In this document: positions 10,259 to 30,613 of the stretch, piece after piece
How positions within the stretch are numbered: position 1 is the first letter of the stretch
Layout of the letters: each line of letters opens with the position of its first letter
IMG/VR virus record: IMGVR_UViG_3300036859_000186
Span: 12,345 to 76,344 of that record
Direction: 5' to 3' (one strand)
Origin: a virus
DNA length: 64,000 nucleotides
Position numbers and translations under genes: made by a program
Notes under the pieces: generated by a model
What the model saw: the letters and a program-made list of their open reading frames with translations, nothing else
What the model was told of the DNA's origin: nothing
The model's database searches: none

Positions 10259-11473
10259 TTACAACCGTCCTTGAAAATGGACCCCACGGACGAAGTCGTT
10301 TCGGCGTCGTTCTCGCTCCGACTCACAATCTGGCATTACACCGGATGCGAGCTGTTGTTCTAATGGAAGGTCCCGGTGCCGTCCTGCGACCCATCGTTGG
10401 GCAGAGCGAGCCACGACCCCTGCTGGCGGAGTTCGTCTCTCAGCCATCTCAGGAATTTCGGGAATTGATGGATCGGTGGCGGGGGCCGCATCGCCGGTCC
10501 AGTGTTTCTGAGCGGCGGCAGAGTTCCCCCCTGCCGCACTTTTGTAATGGGCGGGTAGAACCCCTAGTGGATCAGGGTTTTGCCGCCCTTCTGCTCCAAC
10601 TTCGTTTGCATCACGAACAAGGCTTCCAAGTCTTTGTGATACGCCTTCTTCGCCGCCTTCCACTTCCTCCGACCGATCTTCTTCGCCCGATACAGCCTCG
10701 TCGCCTCGGCGAAAGGTTGTCCCAGGCGGGAGGGAACCTCCGGTCCCCTTAGTCCGTTTCGTGGATTCTTGTGAGGCCCCAGGGCTCCTGGACCCATTCT
10801 TGTCCGTTCCAGTGCTGTCTCCCGTTGCCCCCACCGTAGGGCGGTCATCGTCCTTGCGACCTCCCTGGTTGTTCACATATCCCACGTTCCGGGATACGCC
10901 CCGAAACTCCCAGTGCTTGTTGCTGCACCACACCTCCTCACTCATCGACCAGGGTCCGCCGAACAATTCCAGCTGGCCCTTGGGCGTGAAGACGACGACC
11001 TTCTCGTCGATCATTTCGAGGATGCCAAGACCGTAGTGATGGGCGAGCCAGGCCATCGTGCGGCTGTCGCTCCACTTCCCGGAGGGAAGCTTGAATCCCA
11101 CGTTCTTGACGGCGGCTTCAAGGGCAACGTCCTTGTATTTGCCCCAGTGGCCGTTGTGAAACAGCACCGGATTGGGTCCTTGACCCTCGATGGTTGTGGT
11201 CGCGTTCTCGTCCACCACGAACGGGTGGGTGAGGAAGCGAGATGGCCCACCGCAGCTTGCGATGCGAAAGTGGAGCACGTAAGGCAGCGGAATCTCTTTG
11301 GCAAGGTCCTGGATTTCCCCAAGTTCCATGCCCTTCTTCCACTGCACCCAGGGCTCACCCTTGGGACCCTCGACACGCCAAGCGGCACCGGCCCCCTCAG
11401 CGTTCGTTTCGTAGGCCCTCTCGATCATGCTCTCGGTTGGGCGCTTCTTCTCTGCAATGAAAATGACACACAT
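10259..11473 (-). CDS. Class II glutamine amidotransferase (Ntn hydrolase) with long low-complexity tail
   Basis: N-terminal Met-Cys, N.EG.G, HFRIAS, THPF, LFHNG and SDS motifs. Confidence 0.9.
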   Translation of the reverse strand: MCVIFIAEKKRPTESMIERAYETNAEGAGAAWRVEGPKGEPWVQWKKGMELGEIQDLAKEIPLPYVLHFRIASCGGPSRFLTHPFVVDENATTTIEGQGPNPVLFHNGHWGKYKDVALEAAVKNVGFKLPSGKWSDSRTMAWLAHHYGLGILEMIDEKVVVFTPKGQLELFGGPWSMSEEVWCSNKHWEFRGVSRNVGYVNNQGGRKDDDRPTVGATGDSTGTDKNGSRSPGASQESTKRTKGTGGSLPPGTTFRRGDEAVSGEEDRSEEVEGGEEGVSQRLGSLVRDANEVGAEGRQNPDPLGVLPAHYKSAAGGNSAAAQKHWTGDAAPATDPSIPEIPEMAERRTPPAGVVARSAQRWVAGRHRDLPLEQQLASGVMPDCESERERRRNDFVRGVHFQGRL

Positions 11474-13522: not shown

Positions 13523-14563
13523 TCATGATCGAGCCACCGTCTTCTGGAGGAAGTTTTCCCATCCGCACTCGTGGCCCTCGGGCAGCGTCGTCCAATGCTT
13601 CATGGGATCATCAGGGAACCATGCTTCGAGTCCGTCGGTATCGATCTTGGCAACGAACTTCTGGAACTGCTTCAGTTCGTGACCAGCCGATAGCCCTCGG
13701 TCCGTATTTCCTCCGACGTGGGCTTCGAGGAATTGGGAGAACTTCTCGAAGTTTGCCTTGGCAAGCCCCACGTCATTGAGGTTGATGGCCCGTCGAACCC
13801 TTGGGAGCGGCACCATTCCACGGAGAGTCTTCTCCGCTTCCCAGCGCTTCTCGCCCATGATGTCGCTCACCAAACGCCCCAACCCCATCACGAAGGACAT
13901 GAGCGGGTAAGCTCGAAGCCAGGTGTTGGAGAGCGTTCGGTATTCGACGCCGAAGGGTTGCTCACGGAACTCACCAGCCCGTCCGTAGACGCGCCGACGA
14001 GTTCGCATGAGAGGGTGTCGGTCAAACAGCACCGCTGTGTTGCCGATCACGATGTCACAGAGCGCAACGAAGCGCTCATAGCCATCCTCCTCGTGAAGGA
14101 GTTCGTTGATGTTGCCGAAGTGCAGGTGCCCACCAGCGGACCGCGTTCGATACGTGAACGGGTTCACACGGACACCAACCTGCCGCTTGTAAATGCTCTT
14201 GCTTGGATTGCACCCAAGCATCTTGACCCGATCAGGCATGGCGTCCATGTCCCGTTTCGGGATGCGAATCACCGGAGTCCAACAGACCGTGAGGTCGGTG
14301 TCTTCCAGTTTGTGCTGAAGGCGACGCATGATGTCGGCCATCATATTGCCAATCTCAGCACGACAGAACGCTGCCTGTGGGTTGATCTCCAGCTGGATGC
14401 CGTCTCGGACGATCTTGCCGAGCCCCTTGAGTTTCATCCCTGCTTCTGGAATCAGCTCGGACGATGGAACGATGTGACCGTTCCGCGCCAAGAACAACTC
14501 TGGGTCCGAACCGAACGATGGATCGGAGTTGTTCTCCACCAATTTCGCATACTGCAAAGCCAC
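13523..14563 (-). CDS. phiEco32-like COOH-NH2 ligase type 2
   Basis: GSDPELFL, DGIQLEINP, GCNP, RSAGGHLHFG, RRRVYGRAGEFR, GVEYRTLSN.W. Confidence 0.92.
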   Translation of the reverse strand: MALQYAKLVENNSDPSFGSDPELFLARNGHIVPSSELIPEAGMKLKGLGKIVRDGIQLEINPQAAFCRAEIGNMMADIMRRLQHKLEDTDLTVCWTPVIRIPKRDMDAMPDRVKMLGCNPSKSIYKRQVGVRVNPFTYRTRSAGGHLHFGNINELLHEEDGYERFVALCDIVIGNTAVLFDRHPLMRTRRRVYGRAGEFREQPFGVEYRTLSNTWLRAYPLMSFVMGLGRLVSDIMGEKRWEAEKTLRGMVPLPRVRRAINLNDVGLAKANFEKFSQFLEAHVGGNTDRGLSAGHELKQFQKFVAKIDTDGLEAWFPDDPMKHWTTLPEGHECGWENFLQKTVARS

Positions 14564-14632
14564 GACTTCCTCCCCGCCGCGAAAATCGCGGCACCAACGC
14601 TGCCTTTACTCAGCACTGGCTTGTGTGAAATG

Positions 14633-14697
14633 TGTGGACAAGAGATTGCGAGGGACCATTTTTATCGCCAAAGATAACGGTCCCAATTCGGCCCACA
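14633..14697 (-). ncRNA. Y RNA-like element 1 (Ro60-binding-type stem)
   Basis: UGUGGGCCGAAUU GGGACC GUUAUC...GGUCCC...CUUGUCCACA; intergenic, about 500 nt downstream of rsr; flanking pairing extends to 14621..14715. Confidence 0.75.
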
Positions 14698-14768
14698 ACG
14701 GTTTCTGACACACAAAGGGATTTCAACGGCCCAGTCTAAGGCCCCTTGTAGCTGACTCCGCCGACTGA

Positions 14769-15197
14769 CTAGTAACGTTCTGTCGTCTTGCTGACTTTCC
14801 CTTCCTTCGTCCACTGCGCGATCAGCTTGTTCAGCTGAGTGTAGTCCGGGTTCCACACCACCACGGTTGAGCTGTGGGGAGGATGCACCGGATTCTTGAC
14901 GAACTCAGAGCGAATGACCGCTCCGAGCTTGTGCTCGGTGACGAACGCCATGAAGGCGTCCGCATAGAACTTGTGTTCCCCGAGCCACTTCTTGTAGTTC
15001 GTGCCCCAGTCCGTCACGTCGGCGAGACACAAGATGATGCACGGCGACCGCATACCCTTCTTGAGGGCGGCAGCCAGATACGTCTCAAGACTGTCGGCAT
15101 GGCACAGCCCGCCGATCTCCTGGACGCCACAGTTCTCGACGTAACCCGTTTGTCCCATGGTCAGCGCTCTCCTCGGTGAAAGTGATGGCTCATACAT
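14769..15197 (-). CDS. Hypothetical 'CCG' family protein, translationally coupled to rsr
   Basis: TAATG overlap with the rsr stop; NCGVQEIGGL...F.AFV....LGAV......NP; paralog of 7014..7367. Confidence 0.7.
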   Translation of the reverse strand: MYEPSLSPRRALTMGQTGYVENCGVQEIGGLCHADSLETYLAAALKKGMRSPCIILCLADVTDWGTNYKKWLGEHKFYADAFMAFVTEHKLGAVIRSEFVKNPVHPPHSSTVVVWNPDYTQLNKLIAQWTKEGKVSKTTERY

Positions 15198-16801
15198 TAG
15201 ACTCTCTCCGCGATGAAGTCGCTGACGATCTGGGGAGCGGCAGAATCGAATCCAGCCACGTCCAGCGTGCGACGGTCGTCCGGGTCGGCGATGGTGAAGT
15301 TCGTCGAGGTCATACCCATGACCACTTCGCAAGCGGCCGGGACGCCCATCTTCTGGCGATACTGACGGAGGGCTTGCGACGGATGGATGGCACCGGCGTA
15401 GGTCTCGTTGTCGGTGATGATGACGAAGCCATCGACCTCAACGCGGTTTTCCATGGCCCACAGGACGGGCTGAGCGCAGTCGGTGCGGCCGAAGTTGTTG
15501 CGCTGTGCAGCTCGGCACACCTCATCGAGGCGCATCTTGGGGGTGATGCCGAGGTCCACGAAGCGGTCGCAGAACCCGAACGTGTAGTAGTCCTTCTCGA
15601 CCTTGGCGGTTGCCATCGCCATAGCAGCAGCACCCTCACAGGCACTCAACGGCATGTTGGCAATTGCGGCTGTCCGCATCGAGCCAGACACGTCGATGCC
15701 GAAGACGATCCGTTTGCCGGTCGGCTTCAGAGACTTGAATGCCAGGTAGAACGCATCATCGAGAGCGTCCACAACAGCAGGCACTGGCTTCCACGCACCA
15801 TCACCCCTGACGCCGTGACCAGACGCGTAGGTCTTGAGGGCGATGAGGATCTCGATGGGGTGGACGCGTGCCTTGTTCAGCCATTCCTTGTCACCAAGGA
15901 CAGCGACAACCTTGCGCGAGGCGTCCGAGAGGGGCGCGAGAAGGCCACACTTGGAGAGGTTGCCCAGGTTGCGGATCATCGCAGTTGCAGGCATCTTCTC
16001 CAAAAGAGCAGCCCACACGTCGGGGTCCTTCAGGAATTCGGTGGGGACCATCTCTCGCGTGAGGCCGTGATTCTGGATGAGTCGGCAGAGGTCACGGGCT
16101 GACTCGGCTGACTTGGCAGCCTCAAAGCCTACGATGACCTGGGGAAGCGTGGGTCCGTCTGCCTTGTGTCCCTCGATGCCATCAACGCACCATTTGAAGA
16201 TAGCGTTCCGAGCTTCATCTGAAGTCTTCGGGTGCGCCAATCTGAGGACATCCGCATTGGACCAGCCGTCCCTCGACTGATACTTGACGACGTGTTGGGC
16301 GAGCTTTTCCGTCGGAAGGTCAAGATACCAGTTCGCCAGGGAACTCCGAAGGCCGCGCCCCAACCCACGAAATGTCGTGACGAAGGCCATGAAATGAAAG
16401 AGGTGCGTGGGGATTCGGCAGACCTTCGGGAGAGCAGCCAGTGCCAGCTTTCGAGTGGCAGGATCTGCAGCAGACGCTGCAAGAGCCAAGGCGAAAATCG
16501 CAGGATCGTTCTTCGGTGCTCGTCCTTCATCGGATACCTCCACGATGGTGCGGACCACTCTGGCACCATCCGCTTCGATACACCGGATGGTTCGTGCCGC
16601 ATTCTCCCTCGTCAGTTTCTGAGGAGACGCGTAGTAGCTCCCACCCTCACTGCCGAGGATCAGGAACCGCAGGAACGCTGCGAAGTCGTCAAGGGCATAG
16701 ACGTAGCCCCCGGCGCTGTTCTGAACCTGAGCCTCACCCAGGAGTGGTGAAGTCTGAGGCTGGGCAACACGCGGCCCAATCGAGCTGAACGGTCTCTTCA
16801 T
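15197..16801 (-). CDS. rsr: Ro60 / TROVE-domain RNA-binding protein (Rsr) with vWA domain
   Basis: NSAGGY, RFLILGSEGGSYY, GRAPK, PTHLFHF, KYQSRDGWS..DVLRLAHPK, AMIRNLG, IDVSGSM (MIDAS), TDNET, DVAGFD. Confidence 0.96.
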   Translation of the reverse strand: MKRPFSSIGPRVAQPQTSPLLGEAQVQNSAGGYVYALDDFAAFLRFLILGSEGGSYYASPQKLTRENAARTIRCIEADGARVVRTIVEVSDEGRAPKNDPAIFALALAASAADPATRKLALAALPKVCRIPTHLFHFMAFVTTFRGLGRGLRSSLANWYLDLPTEKLAQHVVKYQSRDGWSNADVLRLAHPKTSDEARNAIFKWCVDGIEGHKADGPTLPQVIVGFEAAKSAESARDLCRLIQNHGLTREMVPTEFLKDPDVWAALLEKMPATAMIRNLGNLSKCGLLAPLSDASRKVVAVLGDKEWLNKARVHPIEILIALKTYASGHGVRGDGAWKPVPAVVDALDDAFYLAFKSLKPTGKRIVFGIDVSGSMRTAAIANMPLSACEGAAAMAMATAKVEKDYYTFGFCDRFVDLGITPKMRLDEVCRAAQRNNFGRTDCAQPVLWAMENRVEVDGFVIITDNETYAGAIHPSQALRQYRQKMGVPAACEVVMGMTSTNFTIADPDDRRTLDVAGFDSAAPQIVSDFIAERV

Positions 16802-17409: not shown

Positions 17410-17813
17410 TTCTACCGCCTCTCCTCATCGACACGCAGTAGCTCTTCCTGTCGCCGTCGCCGTCTTGCGATGGGCACTAGGTATTGTCGCTCCAGTGACT
17501 CCAACGCGTTCCTTAGTTCCAGGGACGCATCTATCGCATCTTCGCGGCCTCCATTTTCTTGGGCAAGAGCATATTTGACGAAAGCAACAAGGAGTCGTTC
17601 TTGGCGCTGGTTCATGGTTAGCTCTCCTTTTGGCATGCGCCAACATCCCCATGAGCTGGTGTCAGGTCGGCCCCACAGTAGGGGCACAGGCCAGCCTCAA
17701 CACATACTCGGATGTAGCGCTCCAGCTCACGGCGCTGACTTAGACGATCCTCTGCCTTCAGGAGGATGCGAGTATCGAGTATGGGGCTCTTCAACATGAG
17801 CTACCTCAAAAGT

Positions 17814-17881
17814 GCGTCGGATAAATTTCGTAGGCAGCGGTTTTATCTTAGAAGGATAACGCTACCAGAGCGACCCGACAC
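17814..17881 (-). ncRNA. Y RNA-like element 2
   Basis: GUGUCGGGUCG...GGUAGC GUUAUC...GCUGCC...UUUAUCCGACGC; same motif as element 1 with compensatory changes. Confidence 0.72.
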
Positions 17882-17889
17882 GTCAAATT

Positions 17890-17994
17890 TGGTGGAGGCT
17901 TGATAGGCATATGGACAGAGCGGAGCGGTGATGAGGAGACACAATGCTCGTCAATCGTTGCTGCGTAATCTGCCGCCAACCCACAACAGCCCCC
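17890..17994 (-). ncRNA. Rod-like RNA with Ala-type acceptor stem and encoded CCA
   Basis: 5' GGGGGCU / 3' AGCCUCC-A-CCA (G3.U70, A73); interior is a long imperfect hairpin with no D or T loop; sits between two Y-like RNAs with 8-nt spacers. Confidence 0.55.
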
Positions 17995-18002
17995 ATAAAT
18001 AG

Positions 18003-18103
18003 TGGAGCCAAGGACAAGTGTTTGCAGAGGGGTATTCCTGTGCGCTGCCTTTCGGCCCGCTTCTAGGTGCCAGATAACCCTCATGCGTCGGCCCTAGGCT
18101 CCA
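18003..18103 (-). ncRNA. Y RNA-like element 3
   Basis: UGGAGCCUAGGGCCGA...GAGG GUUAUC...(GCC GAAA GGC)...CCCCUC...CUUGUCCUUGGCUCCA. Confidence 0.72.
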
Positions 18104-18249: not shown

Positions 18250-18693
18250 CTATTCATCCCTTATGGTCTTGTGCCAGAAGGCAACGGTGTTCTTGGTCCG
18301 CTTGTTGAAAAATTCGAACCCCTTCCACCAGCCAAACTTTTCGAGGATGTGAGCCTCAGCTGGGTTGCCAGTCATGTTGACCGTAGCAGCGAGGCTCGAA
18401 TATCCGAACTCTCTGGCGATGGCTTCCTTGAAGGGCATCAGTGCTTGAGCAATACCCTGCTTTTGATGCTTCGTTTCGACCCATGTCTTGGTGCTCACGA
18501 GCACACCGCAACAGTTGACCTGCTCGACGAGGGTAAAGCCGCATGCCCGTTCGTTGTTCAGGAAGCCCGTGAACTCCAACAGGAACGGACTCTTGCGGAT
18601 GCGGATCTGCACGTCGCCCCACTCGTAGAACTCCTCACTGAGGGTTCTAATAGATGCAACGGCCTTTGGCACGTCACGAATTGAGAATGGCAT
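18250..18693 (-). CDS. GNAT-family N-acetyltransferase
   Basis: Motif A V...HQKQGIAQAL; ATV...N....ILEKFGW; also has a CCG motif. Confidence 0.8.
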   Translation of the reverse strand: MPFSIRDVPKAVASIRTLSEEFYEWGDVQIRIRKSPFLLEFTGFLNNERACGFTLVEQVNCCGVLVSTKTWVETKHQKQGIAQALMPFKEAIAREFGYSSLAATVNMTGNPAEAHILEKFGWWKGFEFFNKRTKNTVAFWHKTIRDE

Positions 18694-18832: not shown

Positions 18833-18907
18833 TGGCGGGACGGCGTGGACTCGAACCACGAACCTTTCGTTTTGGAGACGAACACTCTGCCATTGAGCTA
18901 CCGACCC
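18833..18907 (-). tRNA. tRNA-Trp (CCA)
   Basis: GGGUCGG UA GCUC AAUGGCA GAGU G UUCGU CU-CCA-AA ACGAA AGGUU CGUGG UUCGAGU CCACG CCGUCCC G CCA. Confidence 0.93.
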
Positions 18908-19611: not shown

Positions 19612-19688
19612 GGGAGGTGACATGGATGAGTGGTTGTCCAGGGAACATTTGGAAGGTAACCCTAGAACGCCGACCCATGTCATCTCCC
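19612..19688 (-). ncRNA. Y RNA-like element 4
   Basis: GGGAGAUGACAUGGGUCGG...CUAGG GUUACC...CCCUGG...CUCAUCCAUGUCACCUCCC followed by U5; intergenic. Confidence 0.68.
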
Positions 19689-19710: not shown

Positions 19711-20529
19711 CTAACGACTTGGCATGAGAATTGGATGACCCTCGTCACCAACCTCCTTGTAAAGCGCTTCTTTCAGCTGATACATAGCTCGTGCCCACAG
19801 CGCTACTGCGTCCGGTGAGGCCGCTTGCAGCACCATTGGGAATTCCCGAGCTGTCTTCTTGAAGTAGTTCTCTGCCCAACGACGGGCATCCTTCGGCTTG
19901 ATTCGACAGCCCTCAGGCTTCGTGAGCATTCGAGTCATGTCGTTCAGGTTGTCGGCCCGGTCTAGAGTCTTAAGTGAGGCCGCGTCCTGATCGTTCGATA
20001 TCTTCGAGTAGTAGACCACCTTCATGGCCGCTTGAAGGTCTTCGGGCGTCTCGTCCTTCCAATCCTTCGTGAGGAGCATGACAAGATCGACCGTTCGGTC
20101 TGGGAACTTTAACGCAATGAGGTCGTGCTGCATGATATAAGTGTCTTCCACCACATCGTGGAGCAATGCTGCTGCCTGTGCTTCCTCATTGAGGCCGATG
20201 TCACGAGCCATCTCGAACACCCGAATGGGATGCACGATGTATGGGTCATCGAAGGCTTTACGCTTCTGTGAGATGTGTGCAGCCGTCGCACACTCCAGCG
20301 CTACATTGATGAGCGTATCGCCTTCAGGTTCAGCCACAGGAATCTCCGTATAGGGTGGTCGCGTCCTAATCAAGTGGTGCTTGCAGACAGGGCAGTCGCC
20401 CCAGCTGTAAGTCTCTGAATGGACGGGGTGAGCGATGGGGATTAGGCACCACTCACACCACAATTCATCTGCCATAGCACTAGTTCCTTCGAGGAACAAA
20501 AGCTTTTCGTCGAGTGAGCGCCAAGGCAT
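19711..20529 (-). CDS. HD-domain small alarmone ((p)ppGpp) hydrolase, RelA/SpoT-HD/Mesh1-like, with N-terminal Zn ribbon
   Basis: AHISQKRK...PYIVHPIRV...AALLHDVVEDT...LTK...KTLDRADNL. Confidence 0.88.
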   Translation of the reverse strand: MPWRSLDEKLLFLEGTSAMADELWCEWCLIPIAHPVHSETYSWGDCPVCKHHLIRTRPPYTEIPVAEPEGDTLINVALECATAAHISQKRKAFDDPYIVHPIRVFEMARDIGLNEEAQAAALLHDVVEDTYIMQHDLIALKFPDRTVDLVMLLTKDWKDETPEDLQAAMKVVYYSKISNDQDAASLKTLDRADNLNDMTRMLTKPEGCRIKPKDARRWAENYFKKTAREFPMVLQAASPDAVALWARAMYQLKEALYKEVGDEGHPILMPSR

Positions 20530-21017: not shown

Positions 21018-21146
21018 TGGTGGGTCGTGGTGGATTCGAACCTGCCCAGATCCCTCTCCCGTGGACATCTATCGTTACCCCACTACTGTTGCCGAGGAGG
21101 CCCCAGCAGTGACGATAGCCCAGCCGTCCCAGCTGGCTGACGACCC
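21018..21146 (-). ncRNA. tRNA-like RNA with greatly extended anticodon arm
   Basis: Acceptor GGGUCGU/ACGACCC-A-CCA; D-like arm GCC..GG..GGC; T loop GG-UUCGAAU-CC; anticodon arm replaced by a long hairpin (CUAUCGU/ACGAUAG, CACUGCUG/CAGUAGUG). Confidence 0.65.
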
Positions 21147-21150
21147 AAAC

Positions 21151-23666
21151 TTACTCGCCCTTATGACATAGGGTTGAGATGTATCGGCGTTCCTTCTGAT
21201 GGTTGTGGGCTGGCCCTTCGCACCATGGACACCACATCCATGCGTTGACGGAGTTCTGCGACATGGGGCGTAGGACGTGCCAGATGTGACCACAGACAAC
21301 CCACTTTAGGTATTGCAATGGTAGATACCAATGCAGATACAGAGCGAGTCGCTCTTGCCACGTCTTCTGACGCTTCCCAATGCAGCCACACTTAGCACAG
21401 TGGGGCACAGGGGCGTCGTGGCATTCGTCGGTGACGAGTGGGCCGCCACACTCGCAGGTTCCGATTCTATCGGTCACGGTCCTTGTCACCTTTCCAACCC
21501 CGCTTGAGCTGTTCGAGGTTGTATTTTGCCATGATGTCGTTCAATGCTCGGATGGTCATGAAAACTGCCAACTCGTTGGGTTCACCATAGTGGAGCTGGT
21601 CCCACAGCTTCTGAGACTCATCCTTGAGCAGTTCATGGGCGGGATGCTTCAACAGTGGCATTGCTTCTCTCCTTATCCCAACGCCAGACACCGTCCTCGT
21701 AGATCATGACGGTGATGCAGTCGAACTTGCACTTGTGGATGGTGCCGTTGGCCGGGGGCTCGTTCTGTGTGCTCATAAAGTCCCCAAGGGACGAGAGGCA
21801 ACACCTGAAAAGCCCACCTTGAGCAATGCCGTAAGGCACGCGGCTACCCATTACCATTCCTCATCGTTGTCGGGAAAGGCTCGGGTCTCCTTGGCATAGC
21901 GCTTGCACTTGGTGCAGAAAGCAGGCCAACAGTCCCCAGTCATGCCAAGTAACACACGATGGCTCTCACCGTCGTCGCAGGTGCCGCTTTCCAACTCTTC
22001 GCTGGTGGTCAGGAGAGCGGGATCAGGAGGCTTCTCATCGTTGTCACAGGCTCCGGCCTCTATGACTTCGAGGGCCTCACGCATGTCATCGAGGTTCATC
22101 ACCACATCACCTTTTTACAGCGCCTACATTGTGCGAACGCCTCAGAGAGGAGCACCGGCCCATGAAAGAGCGGTGGATACCACACCGGATCGTGTCCCCA
22201 CACATTGCATTGGGTCATGAGGGGCATCAGCTCCCAATAGAGCAAGAGCGCAATGAATGTGAGGACAAAGATACCGAGCAGGTCCATTAGCCCTTCCGTC
22301 GATTCTGGCGGTTGATGGCACGCTTCGACAAGATGCGGCCACGGTTGTGGCGCTTCGATGCCTGACGAGCAGCCCAGCCCACACCAGCCTTCTCAGTGCC
22401 AATGCGGTTCAGTTCCCGCTTGATTCGTTTCTCTCTTTTCCGCATGTCAGCCCCGGTCTCGCTGGTGAAGGTCGTCGGTGTATTCGACATCGTCGATCTT
22501 GAAGTTCTCCAGCACCTTCGTGAGGGCGATCTTGGCATCGACCAGTTGGGCTTGCGTCTGTTGAGCGGCCTTAATCTGGTCGTCGATCACGATGATTTGA
22601 CGGTCGAGGGCCAACTGAGCATCACGAAGCTTGAGAAGGGCACTGTTGTTCATCGTAAACACGGTAGTCTCCTCCTTGAGAAAAAGGCAGCACTGATCGT
22701 CATTGGGGCACAACCTCACCCCATCCCTACAAATGAGGGTGCAGCGCAGCGTCATGAGAGGTTGAACCTCACCTTGCCGAAGTCCACGACACGGCCGAAG
22801 ATGCGGCGTCTAGCGAGGGAGCCCATGCTCTCTTCCATAGCTTCGGCACAGTCGCGCAGCATGATGTATTCCTCAACGGAGACGGGCACAGATATTTGGA
22901 GGCCACGGCCGCCGTTGGCCATCTTTTGACGAACGCTCTTAACGTGGCGCTTAGTCGAGGGTAGGCCACCCAAACGCCGACGAAAGACTTCTAAGAGCAT
23001 GTCCGGTCTCTGCCTCAGAAAGCCTGTCAAAATCTTCCTCTCCGTCTTCGAGCCTGAGAGCCTGTTGACGATGGTTGAGAGGCTCTGACCCTTCATCAGA
23101 TCCTTCGACCTCAAGAGCCCTGAGCTTTCCAAGCTCGCGTTCGAGTTCGAAGTAGTCGTCGGGGCTGAGTTTGTCTTCTTCGCCATGCCTGAGCACGTCC
23201 TCGATGTCTGTGATACGCTGAGTGTATCGGCTAGGCACGGTCGCGTTCCTTGAGCCGGGGGGCACGAACCTTGTGGATGCGTTCGACAAGGAGCTTGTGG
23301 TTGACCTGGGGCTGAAGCTCCTCGCCGCATCGATCGACGAGGATGGCTAGTCCTTCGGGGCTGACCCTCAACTCCTTGACAATCTCGGTGCCCTTACTGA
23401 CGAGGGTTTCGCCGTTGGGCAGCAGGTTTCTGTAGGTGACGGGTCGCACAATGGCGATCACCTTTCGCATAGGGACGCCGAGCTTTGTCACTTCTTGTGT
23501 TACTTCGCAACGGAACATCACGAACTCCTTGTAGCTTCATCTCATGAAGGTGTTGCTGCTCACTATCATGCAAGAGATATGCACGATTGTGAGGATTTAA
23601 GTCTCCTTGCAGTATGAGGGCTGCAGCGTTCTTGTCTCGCACGACCTTTGGAAAGTGTGACCACAT
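21151..23666 (-). other. Run of small hypothetical ORFs, many with CxxC motifs
   Basis: Overlapping or coupled ORFs at 21151, 21467, 21851, 22099, 22287, 22447, 22752, 22951 and 23231; no recognisable domains. Confidence 0.55.
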
Positions 23667-23677
23667 GAGAACCTTAT

Positions 23678-23863
23678 TGGAGTGCTGGGGGTTCAGACTC
23701 TCAAACTTTAGGGACCTATCCGCCTACGAACGACTTCCACCATTGTCGAGCGAACCCAACACACGTGTCCATCGAGTGACAGCTATAATAATGGAATCCC
23801 ACTCAATTACCATGGTCAGTGAGCTTCGATTCCCAAGGCAAATCCTCTCTACTCCAGCTCCCC
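23678..23863 (-). ncRNA. Candidate structured RNA with Ala-like terminal stem
   Basis: 5' GGGGAGCUGG pairs with 3' CCAGCACUCC-A (G3.U70); internal helices UUCCAUUAUU/AAUGGUGGAA and GGAAUC/GAUUCC; non-coding gap. Confidence 0.4.
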
Positions 23864-23865
23864 TT

Positions 23866-23947
23866 GTTATCGCAAATGCTTTACCGCTAAGCTACCAGCC
23901 CCATTGCTGGGGCCGGGGTGGGTTCGAACCACCGACCTTTTGCGAAC
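23866..23947 (-). ncRNA. Circularly permuted tRNA-like RNA (YrlA-type tRNA-mimic domain)
   Basis: UCGCAAA AGGUC GGUGG UUCGAAC CCACC CCGGCCCCA-GCAA-UGGGGCUGG UA GCUU AGCGGUA AAGC A UUUGCGA. The T arm precedes the D arm and the acceptor stem is closed by a GNRA loop. Confidence 0.85.
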
Positions 23948-23990
23948 TTGGGCACGCTTCGTTCAAGAATGATTGCCCGTCCCCCCAACC

Positions 23991-26900
23991 TTAGCCGTGA
24001 ATGAGCCATCCAATGACGAGAGATGCCTCTTCAGGGTTCATTTTCCCTTGGGCTCGCAACTCTTCGGCGAATTCTTTCTTGATCTCCGACGGTACCTCAT
24101 CGTAGCGGTGGTCTTTGCCAGTGAGGTTGTCGCGGAGCCACGGCTCGTCAAAGAAAGCACCCTCATCGCTCAAAATTGAGAAGCGACGATCCTGTTTCAC
24201 GCTCATGACTGCTCCTTGAACAATTCTCGATATTGCGTGTGCCAGAGACATTCATCGGGGAACACGTTCAGAATGTGCCGCCCAAGCCTGCGAAGAGCAT
24301 GCTTCTCACGGTAGCTACCGTGAATGTCAGCATCGCCCAACAGTTGAGCGATAGCAGCGAGCACTTGCGACACATGCCTCATCGGAGATCCTCGCATCTC
24401 GTCGCAGTAGTGATTGGAATACCAGACCAATTCGAGACCAAAGTATTCGTAGATGGCGAACAACTTATGACAGAAGTCACACTTCACCCAAACGCCACGA
24501 CGAATCCTCATCGGTTAGTCCTCCGTGATGCTTTCTGCATCTTGGACACGGACTTGTTTCGCTTCTTGCGTCCACGACGGCAGTGGAGCCTAGATGTTGG
24601 AATCACAGGCTGCAGTGACGAGAGGGGATGACCTGTGAGAGCGGCCATCAGCAGAAAGCTTGTCAGGTTTCGAGCCATCGAGCACCTCAGTCTGAATGGT
24701 CTTGCACTTCTTGCAGGTATGGATCGCCCAATACTCAGCCACTGTGTCGGCTAAGTGCTTGTGTTCCCACTCATGCCCACATTCGGGGCACCTATGTCGA
24801 AAGAGCACGGCTACCAATACCACCGATGCACATGACGGCCCACAACGATGTAGACGTATCCTATACCAATCTCAAAGCCGAATGAGCGGCATGTCTCGTC
24901 TTGAACGAAGTGGTCATGATACACCATTGGGTTAGCCCCTGAATTTGGGAGGCATCTGGACAGTGCCCTTGCCCGCTTTGCAGGCTTGTGGCTTACTCAT
25001 GAGGAGGCCATGCTCTTGTCGAATGTTGATGACGTAGTTGCGTTGGCACCGGATAGCGCTGTCGTAGTCACCATGCGCCTTATAGTCCTTGGGGCCGCCC
25101 TTATTCGTCGATTTGGCAGCACCCTTGCAAGATTCTGGGGGCACGCCACAATCCCATGCTACTTTGCGAGGGCCTTGCCGTTTGCCTGCGAATGCGGCCA
25201 TTAGACGATATTCCTTCCCCTGACAAACCGCATTCCAACGAGAAACGCGGGTAATAGGAACCAAGGCCCAAACCAGTAGCAGCCCCAGATCAACCCAATG
25301 ATGTTCACTACGGGGGTCTTCCAGCCCTTAGGGAATGTAATGACATCGCCCATTAGCTCGGTTCCTCTTGAGGCGTGACTTCGTTCTTGGCCTCAGTGAT
25401 GGTCACATCGATGTTGTCGCCCTTACGGACTACAACAAAGGTGACGTTGATAAGACCTTTACATAGCTGAACCAACGCGGGTCCAGCGATGTTGAGGTCG
25501 AGGCCATCGTCCATACTGATTTGTTCGATCTCAGTGGACAGGTTGATCGTGCGAGGCATCAGTGGGCCTTTCCCTTTATTGGCGTCTCGGCGAGGAGGAC
25601 CGCTTCGAGTTCATCTTTGTATTCCGCCGCAACTTCAACGGCGGCATCGACCAATTCCTTGATGATCTTCCAATCCTTGGCGTCACCACCGTTGACGTTG
25701 ATGGTAGTGGCAACGGCACGGGCCAACACAATGTGGCGAGGGGAAGCCTCTATCTTGGCCACACGCTCCTCAAGATCCTTGATGAGGGCCTCAGACACTT
25801 CACTAATGGCGCTCATGACTTCTCCTTATCTTCTTTGCACGAATACCAGCACGCTTTGGCTTTGCCTTCGTGGCGAGTTCTCTTAGCGTAGCCAAGTGCT
25901 CATTCGTCACGGCGTAGGACGTAGAGACATCATACATCGGTCTCTTGTCCTCGAACTTGAACCTCATGACACCTCCATGTCCCAAACCTTACGTGTGTTT
26001 AGCTGCTGCGTGTCTTCACGAACGATGCTGCTATCAGGAGCAGCGTGGCACATGCCATGTAAAGCATCGACTACCTCGCAAGGAAGTAATCTCGCGTTTT
26101 TGGGTATTGACCCCAGTTAGGGGCTTTTGATGAGTTCTTGGGGTCATGTAGCCATGCGAGTATGGCCTTGCGACCTTGCTCCAGGGGCTTGGCCATCTGT
26201 TTTGCTAACCCCTTGACGAAGATGTCCTCCATCTGCCGAAGGACAGTATCAAGCTCAGGGGTTGTAGACGATTGATTGGCCATTTCCCTCTCTCAACACC
26301 AAAAGGCCCACCCCAACATTATCAGAGGTAGGCCAATCAGTGTGCGCTTGCATGGAGGTGCGATGCGCTTACAAATGGCAAAAGGCCACGCCCATAGGGG
26401 TGGCCTCAAGGCTCTCTCCCAGCACGGAAGGGCTCAACCCCCACCGTAAAGAGCCTAACAGGATTGCAAGACGGCAGCAACGATCAAAGCAATGACTATG
26501 ATGGCACGCATAGCCCAAACGCCCCAGTTGGGGTCTCCAGTGTCAAGCAGGATCGGGGCCATCGCTGTTACGTGCATGGAGTATGTCAGTCTCACCGTCC
26601 GCTGATTCCCTTCCACCTTCCAGTGAATGAGGCGAACCGCTTTCAGATGAGACTGGCACAACCCACCACATCTGACGATCACGCTCAAGGACAATCTCAA
26701 TGCCCATGAGGAAGTCAAGGATGGCGTTAATCATCAGCTTTCCCCAAAGATGATGATAGGGCTTGTGCGTTGGATTCTCCCCAATTGAATCACGGGGTAG
26801 TCCCCACGCTCAATCAATTGGAGGAACGCCCTGTCCATCGTCTCCACATCGGTGGTGTATGAGCGACACTCAAACACCTGCCCTAAGAGCATCTCTTGTG

Positions 26901-30538: not shown

Positions 30539-30613
30539 GCCACTGTAGTATAACGGTAGTATCCTTGCCTTCCAAGCAGGTGGGTGCGAGTTCGACTCTC
30601 GCCAGCCGCTCCA
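30539..30613 (+). tRNA. tRNA-Gly (TCC), acceptor stem with two mismatches
   Basis: CUUGC CU-UCC-AA GCAGG; T arm GCGAG UUCGACU CUCGC; U73-CCA; acceptor GCCACUG/CAGCCGC. Confidence 0.85.

What the first reader, a model, noticed from the sequence alone, without database searches (positions are those of the whole stretch)
23866..23947. Free-standing circularly permuted tRNA
A complete set of tRNA parts in permuted order: variable AGGUC, T arm GGUGG-UUCGAAC-CCACC, 9-bp acceptor closed by a GCAA tetraloop, U8A9, D arm GCUU-AGCGGUA-AAGC. The molecule opens at the anticodon stem (UCGCAAA/UUUGCGA). It has no anticodon loop and no free CCA end, so it cannot decode. This is the YrlA tRNA-mimic topology, but I see no flanking Ro-binding helix and it lies about 7 kb from rsr. 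It may be an elbow decoy that cannot be cleaved at an anticodon.
Basis: partly seen in the sequence, partly recalled or inferred. Interest (0 to 1): 0.85.

Follow-up and report, generated by a model that had tools for sequence, protein, structure and literature searches.

The report
Stand-alone YrlA-type tRNA mimic in phage
A soil phage that encodes the ring-shaped RNA-binding protein Ro60 also encodes one small RNA shaped like a tRNA turned inside out (the known YrlA design), but here it lies 7 kb from the Ro60 gene on a stem of its own and lacks the conserved handle carried by six other small RNAs of the same phage, so it could show whether the tRNA-like part works without being tied to Ro60.

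Summary
On the minus strand, 23870-23946 folds into a V loop, T arm, 9-bp acceptor closed by GCAA, U8A9, D arm and a 7-bp closing stem. Rfam YrlA matches it end to end at 34.8 bits. This is below the gathering score, but bona fide phage YrlAs beside rsr score the same (33-42 bits).

The topology is the published YrlA one, already called a circularly permuted tRNA with a closed acceptor, so the kind is known. The setting is unusual:
- The window is part of a complete 76-kb soil phage that encodes Ro60.
- The phage carries six minus-strand Y-like scaffold RNAs (GGGYCG...GUUAYC...YRUCC, strongly covarying). All six lack a tRNA module.
- The only tRNA-like module lies 7.05 kb upstream of rsr, outside any such scaffold.
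- In 83 other viral Ro60 loci, 59 of the 70 best hits lie within 1 kb upstream of rsr, and all 38 aligned typical ones are embedded in that scaffold.

The flanks pair (z -2.9) and carry a CGAAG motif at the usual position, so Ro60 binding stays plausible, at about even odds.

Earlier notes of this scan describe YrlA-like mimics in many other phages. No homologue or expression data were found.

The parts
23877..23938 (-). tRNA-like core: V loop AGGUC, T arm, 9-bp closed acceptor with GCAA tetraloop, U8A9, D arm, nt 26
   Evidence: MFE fold. Basis of model R1, whose best hits elsewhere are YrlAs beside viral Ro60 genes. ARAGORN calls the un-permuted form a tRNA.
23939..23945 (-). 5' strand of the 7-bp anticodon-stem-like closing helix (UCGCAAA)
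   Evidence: Ours has 7 contiguous pairs; none of the other top-70 R1 hits exceeds 5.
23870..23876 (-). 3' strand of the closing helix (UUUGCGA)
23957..23964 (-). GAACGAAG: candidate Ro60/Rsr recognition motif (6 of 7 match to GNCGAAN0-1G) at an internal loop between two helices of the 5' strand
   Evidence: Sequence and fold. Motif definition from PMC4201824. CGAA criterion from PMC12135203. Chance of CGAA with a following G in a 40-nt flank is roughly 0.07-0.13 (my estimate).
23947..23995 (-). 5' flank forming the long imperfect terminal stem. The proximal part (about 23947-23964) is robust; the distal part is uncertain.
   Evidence: Flank-flank duplex z -2.9. In a 344-nt fold the proximal pairs are kept but the distal part finds other partners. 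RNA ends not mapped.
23809..23869 (-). 3' flank forming the other strand of the terminal stem. The proximal part (about 23851-23869) is robust.
15197..16801 (-). rsr: Ro60 orthologue (534 aa), the presumed protein partner
   Evidence: Pfam vWA_Ro60 1.6e-60 and TROVE 4.2e-40. 44-48% identical to Ro-like proteins of Gordonia, Mycobacterium and Microbacterium phages.
14629..14702 (-). Y-like scaffold RNA E1 (context): outer stem-GGGCCG-inner stem-GUUAUC-small apical hairpin-linker-GUCC-outer stem. No tRNA module.
   Evidence: 53.9 bits.
17811..17884 (-). Y-like scaffold RNA E2 (context)
   Evidence: 69.7 bits.
18004..18102 (-). Y-like scaffold RNA E3 (context), with a larger apical module
   Evidence: 28.3 bits; not in the training set of R3.
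19616..19684 (-). Y-like scaffold RNA E4 (context)
   Evidence: 68.9 bits.

Best explanation
It is a gene for a YrlA-class Y RNA: a non-decoding tRNA mimic with an intact T/D-loop elbow and an acceptor closed into a hairpin, carried at the tip of an imperfect stem formed by its 5' and 3' flanks. It belongs to the Ro60/Y-RNA system of a complete 76-kb soil phage.

Shown:
- the fold and its homology to the tRNA-like module of viral YrlAs;
- the presence of rsr on the same strand of the same leftward gene block;
- the absence of the canonical scaffold motifs.

Inferred:
- The RNA is cut out of the leftward polycistronic transcript; no promoter or terminator of its own was found.
- Ro60 docks on the internal loop that carries CGAAG between two helices, a non-canonical version of the usual site.
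- The L-shaped domain then presents a tRNA elbow to tRNA-recognising host proteins. For Salmonella YrlA, TruB and DusA are documented and the effector is unknown. This would tether such a protein to Ro60, as described for other Y RNAs.

Compared with typical viral YrlAs, it has lost the GGUUAYC element and the V hairpin, has a continuous 7-bp anticodon-like stem, and has moved 7 kb from rsr.
For: - Fold and statistics.
- Full-length Rfam YrlA match at 34.8 bits. This equals the 33-42 bits of YrlAs lying 49-284 nt upstream of rsr in the phages Cashline, Sparky and FuzzBuster.
- Only YrlA-like core in the genome.
- The best hits of the core model R1 elsewhere are YrlAs next to viral Ro60 genes.
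- The flanks pair better than chance, and the proximal stem survives in a 344-nt fold.
- AACGAAG lies 23 nt before the core, against 25-29 nt for CGAA in V-less viral YrlAs such as L072 and L075.
- A phage Ro60 was shown to bind Y-like RNAs that were picked by a CGAA motif in a stem-internal loop (PMC12135203).
- In this genome the Y-like RNAs are dispersed over 21 kb in any case, so distance from rsr counts for less here.
Against: - The flanks lack GGGYCG, GUUAYC and YRUCC. These are present in all six scaffold RNAs of the same phage, in 42 scaffold RNAs of other viral Ro60 loci, and, as GGUUA, in all 38 aligned typical viral YrlAs.
- Model R3 finds nothing here at E<=10 with filters off, yet it spans embedded tRNA modules in 5 control YrlAs.
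- Five of this phage's six scaffolds conserve only CG, not CGAA, so CGAAG may not be what this Ro60 reads.
- The internal loop at CGAAG is small (2 x 3 nt), not the usual 5-6 x 10-12 nt.
- CGAAG could be chance (about 0.1).
- 59 of the 70 best R1 hits in the viral Ro60 loci lie within 1 kb upstream of rsr; this one is 7 kb away.
- There is no expression, end-mapping or binding data, and no homologue to test covariation of the stem.
Confidence: 0.5

Rival explanations
1. Split Y RNA. The tRNA-like effector module has been uncoupled from Ro60. Ro60 is occupied by the six scaffold RNAs, which carry other apical modules. The tRNA mimic works on its own stem, for example by competing for or sequestering a host protein that reads the tRNA elbow, T arm or acceptor helix, while being immune to anticodon cleavage, aminoacylation or 3'-end modification.
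For: - Absence of the genome's own Ro-scaffold signature, with a working positive control.
- All six scaffolds of this phage are 'empty' of tRNA modules, while the only tRNA module is scaffold-less.
- 7 kb from rsr against the usual under 1 kb.
- A uniquely long, continuous 7-bp closing stem.
- Two viral contigs (L016/L049), and the locus L036, carry closed-acceptor tRNA-like modules. No R3 scaffold was found in L016 or L036, and no TROVE gene in the held parts of the L016 and L049 contigs.
Against: - Every characterised tRNA-like module of this type is part of a Ro60-bound RNA.
- The long terminal stem with CGAAG at the canonical place is what a Ro-binding module looks like.
- R3 loses most of its score on long insertions, so a degenerate scaffold would escape it.
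- The L016 and L049 contigs are 24% and 70% complete.
- No target of the proposed decoy is known.
Confidence: 0.33
2. Decaying relic. A former scaffold-embedded YrlA lost its Ro-binding motifs after relocation and is no longer functional.
For: Loss of GGUUAYC, the V hairpin and the GGGYCG/YRUCC motifs. Singleton with no homologue.
Against: - The core is flawless: 25 of 25 pairs formed, a GNRA-capped 9-bp acceptor, and all tertiary-contact nucleotides canonical.
- The flanks still form a better-than-chance stem.
- It occupies a 324-nt gap in an otherwise tightly packed gene block.
Confidence: 0.1
3. A permuted or split tRNA gene that is matured into a decoding tRNA, or a tRNA-derived attachment site, or two truncated tandem tRNAs.
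For: The un-permuted sequence is tRNA-like. Phages carry tRNAs: tRNA-Trp at 18833-18907 and tRNA-Gly at 30539-30613.
Against: - No anticodon loop can be read at the open end, and the flanks pair instead.
- The phage has no RtcB, and no bulge-helix-bulge splicing system is known in bacteria (my knowledge).
- An attP would hold only the 3' half of a tRNA, whereas both halves are present here, joined by a tetraloop.
- The flanks contain no D, anticodon or T arms of neighbouring tRNAs.
- The genome ends in direct terminal repeats.
Confidence: 0.03

Closest known systems
YrlA (Y RNA-like A; Rfam RF02553): Rsr/Ro60-bound tRNA-mimic Y RNAs of Salmonella, Mycobacterium smegmatis and 22 phages (Chen et al. 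2014, PMC4201824; structure in Wang et al. 2018, bioRxiv 10.1101/312249)
   Same: Same permuted order (V, T arm, closed acceptor-like stem-loop, D arm) opening at the anticodon-stem side. Same conserved tertiary nucleotides. Terminal stem made of the 5' and 3' ends. A CGAA-type motif on the 5' strand. Same strand as rsr in a Ro60-encoding genome.
   Different: 7.05 kb from rsr (the published filter was within 4 kb). No YUAY/GGUUAYC element and no V hairpin. A continuous 7-bp closing stem instead of 2-5 bp plus internal loops. A 9-bp acceptor. The first G of GNCGAA is A. Below the Rfam gathering score, as are other actinophage YrlAs.
Scaffold-only Y-like RNAs (YrlB of Salmonella; Yrl1/Yrl2 of Thermus phage phiLo, PMC12135203; the six GGGYCG...GUUAYC...YRUCC RNAs of this phage and 42 in other viral Ro60 loci)
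   Same: 5'-3' stem with an internal loop bearing a CG(AA) motif. Encoded on the rsr strand.
   Different: Those carry the conserved scaffold and small non-tRNA apical modules. This RNA has the tRNA module but not the scaffold motifs.
Circularly permuted tRNA genes of the red alga Cyanidioschyzon merolae (from my own knowledge, not checked here)
   Same: The 3' half of the tRNA is encoded before the 5' half.
   Different: Those are matured through a circular intermediate into decoding tRNAs with an anticodon loop and a free CCA end. Here there is no anticodon loop and the acceptor is a closed hairpin.

Membership tests
YrlA (RF02553; Chen et al. 2014) | tRNA-like module in permuted order: T arm, closed acceptor-like stem-loop, D arm | tested here: met
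YrlA (RF02553; Chen et al. 2014) | Nucleotides for tRNA tertiary contacts (U8-A14, G15-C48 Levitt pair, G18G19 with U55C56, T54-A58) | tested here: met
   Read from the sequence in the register of the fold. All are canonical.
YrlA (RF02553; Chen et al. 2014) | Score at or above the Rfam gathering threshold (69 bits) | tested here: not met
   34.8 bits. YrlAs directly upstream of rsr in three annotated actinophages score 33.3-42.2 bits, so the threshold is too strict for phage members.
YrlA (RF02553; Chen et al. 2014) | GNCGAAN0-1G motif near the 5' end (proposed Rsr recognition) | tested here: inconclusive
   AACGAAG at 23963-23957, 6 of 7, between two helices. Could be chance (about 0.1).
YrlA (RF02553; Chen et al. 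2014) | Conserved YUAY (kink UA), seen as GGUUAYC in viral members, 5' of the V/T region | tested here: not met
   Nearly invariant in the 38 aligned viral YrlAs. Absent here.
YrlA (RF02553; Chen et al. 2014) | Long stem formed by the 5' and 3' ends | tested here: met
   Flank duplex -34.8 vs -24.0 +/- 3.7 kcal/mol, 1 of 500 shuffles. The distal half is not robust.
YrlA (RF02553; Chen et al. 2014) | Encoded within 4 kb of rsr on the same strand | tested here: not met
   Same strand, but 7,052 nt away. 59 of the 70 best R1 hits in the viral Ro60 loci lie within 1 kb upstream.
YrlA (RF02553; Chen et al. 2014) | Bound by Rsr/Ro60; modified by TruB and DusA | not testable with these tools
   Needs binding and modification assays. 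No RNA run is listed for this phage.
Viral Y-like scaffold (model R3: outer stem-GGGYCG-inner stem-GUUAYC-apical module-linker-YRUCC) | Match to the covariance model built from this phage's own scaffold RNAs | tested here: not met
   No hit in 23800-24000 at E<=10 with filters off. Controls: the six scaffolds score 28-70 bits, and 5 embedded YrlAs in other phages score 11.9-20.3 bits under the same settings.
Canonical tRNA | Cloverleaf in native order with an anticodon loop and a free acceptor end | tested here: not met
   Not called by ARAGORN or the Rfam tRNA model. No anticodon loop, and the acceptor is closed by GCAA.

The most novel reading that the evidence does not exclude
A natural split of a Y RNA. 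In this phage the Ro60-binding scaffold and the tRNA-like effector module, fused in every described YrlA, are encoded as separate RNAs. The free tRNA mimic acts without Ro60, for example as an uncleavable and unchargeable competitor for a host factor that reads the tRNA elbow or acceptor. That would mean the tRNA-like module has an activity of its own.
Probability: 0.33. Interest if true: 0.7.

Novelty: new variant of a known kind. Interest (0 to 1): 0.45.

Why it matters
What the tRNA-like module of YrlA does is still unknown; its effector has not been identified (Wang et al. 2018). Here one genome holds six Ro-binding scaffolds without a tRNA module and one tRNA module without the canonical scaffold. 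That gives a clean, testable contrast: does Ro60 bind the off-scaffold RNA, and does the tRNA mimic have a phenotype independent of rsr? Either answer helps define the real Ro60 recognition element in phage Y RNAs. The search also showed that arrays of scaffold-only Y-like RNAs upstream of viral Ro60 genes are common. Searches limited to 4 kb around rsr and to the Rfam threshold would miss RNAs like this one.

Tried and rejected
- **Phage collection, DNA search:** the RNA region gives no match in near or distant mode.
- **Close relatives of the phage:** none found through Ro60 peptide words or through the two neighbouring ORFs. PHROGs and Pfam give nothing for the flanking ORFs.
- **T-arm pattern in viral contigs:** 50 loci, mostly ordinary or tandem tRNAs.
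- **Metagenome pattern** (T loop, 18-40 nt, this D arm): 100 loci. 87 overlap ARAGORN tRNAs. None of the other 13 has the long closing stem or is a close homologue. So covariation of the stem could not be tested.
- **Sequencing runs:** no RNA holder listed. The only full holder is the probable source soil metagenome. Laying contigs added nothing.
- **Trans-pairing** between this RNA and the six scaffold RNAs: no convincing signal. One z of -2.5 among six tests, with a method ill-suited to long RNAs.
The rest of the gap, 23660-23812, is unstructured (z +0.95).
- **Promoter and terminator scan:** nothing usable next to the RNA.
- **RtcB:** absent from the phage.
- **Second Rfam YrlA hit in the genome** (10805-10874): two tandem tRNAs.
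- **Plus-strand ORF 23614-23994 over the RNA:** no family match, and it runs against the gene direction of the block, so it was treated as spurious.
- **Literature:** two Wolin-lab reviews and the paper sought under DOI 10.1093/nar/gkw722 (intended as Burroughs & Aravind 2016) are not held, so they are not cited for content.

Full report
**Observation.** The element is on the minus strand. The energy is -35.2 kcal/mol against -24.65 +/- 3.29 for shuffles (z -3.2). All nucleotides used for tRNA tertiary contacts are canonical when read in that register. ARAGORN and the Rfam tRNA model ignore the native order, but ARAGORN calls a tRNA in all 36 un-permuted constructs.

**What family it resembles.** Rfam's YrlA model matches 23853-23956(-) over its full length at 34.8 bits (gathering score 69), with E 1.4e-5 locally and 7.6e-4 for the window. 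It is the only real hit in the genome. The window is bases 12345-76344 of a complete 76,344-bp IMG/VR virus record with direct terminal repeats, from a soil metagenome. ORF 15197-16801(-) is a Ro60 orthologue with TROVE and vWA_Ro60 domains, 44-48% identical to Ro-like proteins of actinophages.

In the phages Cashline, Sparky and FuzzBuster, the YrlA hit scores 33-42 bits and lies 49-284 nt upstream of rsr. Sub-threshold scores are therefore normal for phage YrlAs. Published work already describes YrlA as an Rsr-binding module plus a tRNA-like module. [quoted passage not shown] The topology is therefore known.

**How typical viral YrlAs look.** I built a core model (R1) and searched 80 IMG/VR loci encoding Ro60 relatives plus the three phages, which gave 139 hits. 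Of the best 70, 59 lie within 1 kb upstream of Ro60 on its strand. Several of the distant ones are tandem tRNAs.

An alignment of 38 typical hits with flanks, and its consensus fold, show a shared architecture:
- a covarying 9-bp outer helix ending GAGC;
- a CCGRA motif, which is the published GNCGAA motif;
- an inner helix;
- a nearly invariant GGUUAYC;
- usually a V hairpin;
- a 2-5-bp stem next to the tRNA-like core;
- a 3' strand ending CACACGCUCAC.

Our RNA has a 7-bp closing stem, against at most 5 bp in every other top-70 hit. It has no GGUUAYC and no V hairpin.

**The phage's own Y-like RNAs.** Earlier first-reader notes of this scan pointed to dispersed minus-strand elements, and I checked them. 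A regular expression for GGGYCG...RUUAYC finds six on the minus strand. Four are in the window, starting at 14694, 17876, 18094 and 19676. Two lie just before the window, at genome positions 10747 and 10999. About one match is expected by chance. They fold as outer stem, GGGYCG, inner stem, GUUAYC, variable apical module, 10-12-nt linker, YRUCC, outer stem.

On a model-fitted alignment of five of them, 100% of cells pair and 12 of 16 pairs show compensatory changes (such an alignment leans towards its structure). Model R3, built from these five, recovers all six at 28-70 bits, including one it was not trained on. The next best hit in the window is 13 bits. R3 also finds 42 such scaffold-only RNAs in other viral Ro60 loci, almost all within 1 kb upstream of rsr. 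This scaffold is plainly the Ro-binding half of the typical viral YrlA. None of this phage's six copies carries a tRNA-like module.

**Is our RNA inside such a scaffold?** No. R3 gives no hit in 23800-24000 at E<=10 with filters off. Under the same settings on 82 kb of control loci, it spans the embedded tRNA modules of five typical YrlAs at 11.9-20.3 bits, E 0.012-1.4. The control is marginal, and long insertions cost score, so a badly degenerate scaffold could escape. The canonical signature is nevertheless absent.

**Does it have a flanking helix at all?** Yes. The 49-nt 5' flank and the 62-nt 3' flank pair along their length at -34.8 kcal/mol, against -24.0 +/- 3.7 for shuffled pairs (z -2.9; 1 of 500). 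In a 344-nt fold the proximal part persists: the 7-bp stem, then GU/AC, CCC/GGG, AGC-U/AGCU and AC/GU. The distal part finds other partners, so the ends are unknown.

On the 5' strand, between two of these helices, lies AACGAAG (23963-23957). It matches GNCGAAN0-1G in 6 of 7 positions. It lies 23 nt before the core, like the 25-29 nt seen in V-less viral YrlAs (L072, L075). A Thermus phage Ro60 binds Y-like RNAs that were identified by exactly such a CGAA motif in a stem-internal loop. Against this:
- five of this phage's six scaffolds conserve only CG after GGGY;
- the loop here is small;
- the motif could be chance (roughly 0.1).

**Weighing.** Three points favour Ro60 binding: the prior that tRNA-like modules of this type belong to Ro60 RNPs, the shared strand, and the stem with CGAAG. 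Two points count against it: the missing scaffold motifs and the 7-kb distance. In this genome the Y-like RNAs are scattered over 21 kb in any case. I put about 0.5 on a Ro60-bound, non-canonical YrlA. I put about 0.33 on a module truly uncoupled from Ro60, 0.1 on a relic, and a few percent on tRNA-gene or attachment-site readings. Those last readings are contradicted by three things: there is no anticodon loop, both halves are joined by a tetraloop, and the flanks lack neighbouring tRNA arms.

**Limits.**
- No relative of the phage or of this RNA was found, so the stem cannot be tested by covariation.
- No RNA run is listed.
- Two viral contigs (L016/L049), and the locus L036, carry closed-acceptor tRNA-like modules. 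No R3 scaffold was found in L016 or L036, and no TROVE gene in the held parts of the L016 and L049 contigs. Those contigs are incomplete and R3 may not reach such different phages.

**Verdict.** This is a real, well-formed YrlA-type tRNA mimic of a known kind in an unusual configuration: off-scaffold, 7 kb from rsr, in a phage whose six scaffold RNAs all lack a tRNA module. It is a new variant of a known kind and of moderate interest. It becomes more interesting if binding assays show it is independent of Ro60.

Noticed in passing
window 14629-14702, 17811-17884, 18004-18102, 19616-19684 (minus strand); also genome 10657-10755 and 10918-11007 (L002:1353-1451, 1614-1703): Six dispersed Y-like scaffold RNAs (GGGYCG...GUUAYC...YRUCC) with strong covariation and differing apical modules, scattered over 21 kb around rsr rather than in the usual tandem array. 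First pointed out by earlier notes of this scan and confirmed here.
   Followed up: yes
L062/L063/L108:9677-9940, L064:3429-3826, L080:9393-9911, L070:11655-12127 and others: Arrays of 2-8 scaffold-only Y-like RNAs directly upstream of (in a few cases downstream of) Ro60 genes in many IMG/VR contigs. R3 gives 42 hits at E<0.01. Several such viruses have no tRNA-like module at all in the held record.
   Followed up: partly
L016:8330-8392 (same element in L049:10274-10336), L036:2832-2888: YrlA-type closed-acceptor tRNA-like modules in an AT-rich viral contig pair and in a giant-virus MAG fragment. No R3 scaffold in L016 or L036 (L049 was not searched with R3). No TROVE gene in the held parts of the L016 and L049 contigs (24% and 70% complete); L036's record was not held. 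Possibly a Ro-independent class.
   Followed up: partly
window 21018-21146 (minus strand): tRNA-like RNA with a 7-bp acceptor ending ACCA and a GGUUCGAAUCC T loop, but with a roughly 60-nt hairpin where the anticodon arm should be. Not called by ARAGORN.
   Followed up: no
window 17890-17994 (minus strand): Rod-like structured stretch filling the space between scaffold RNAs E3 and E2, so three RNAs sit in a 300-nt array. Only folded here.
   Followed up: no
genome 10760-10920 (L002, outside the window): Tandem tRNA genes lie between scaffold RNAs E5 and E6. They produce a false weak YrlA hit (T arm of one tRNA plus D arm of the next).
   Followed up: partly
window 13523-14563, 18250-18693, 19711-20529 (minus strand): The same leftward block as rsr encodes a phiEco32-type COOH-NH2 ligase, a GNAT acetyltransferase and an HD_4 (alarmone-hydrolase-like) protein. 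Most other ORFs in the block have no family match.
   Followed up: no
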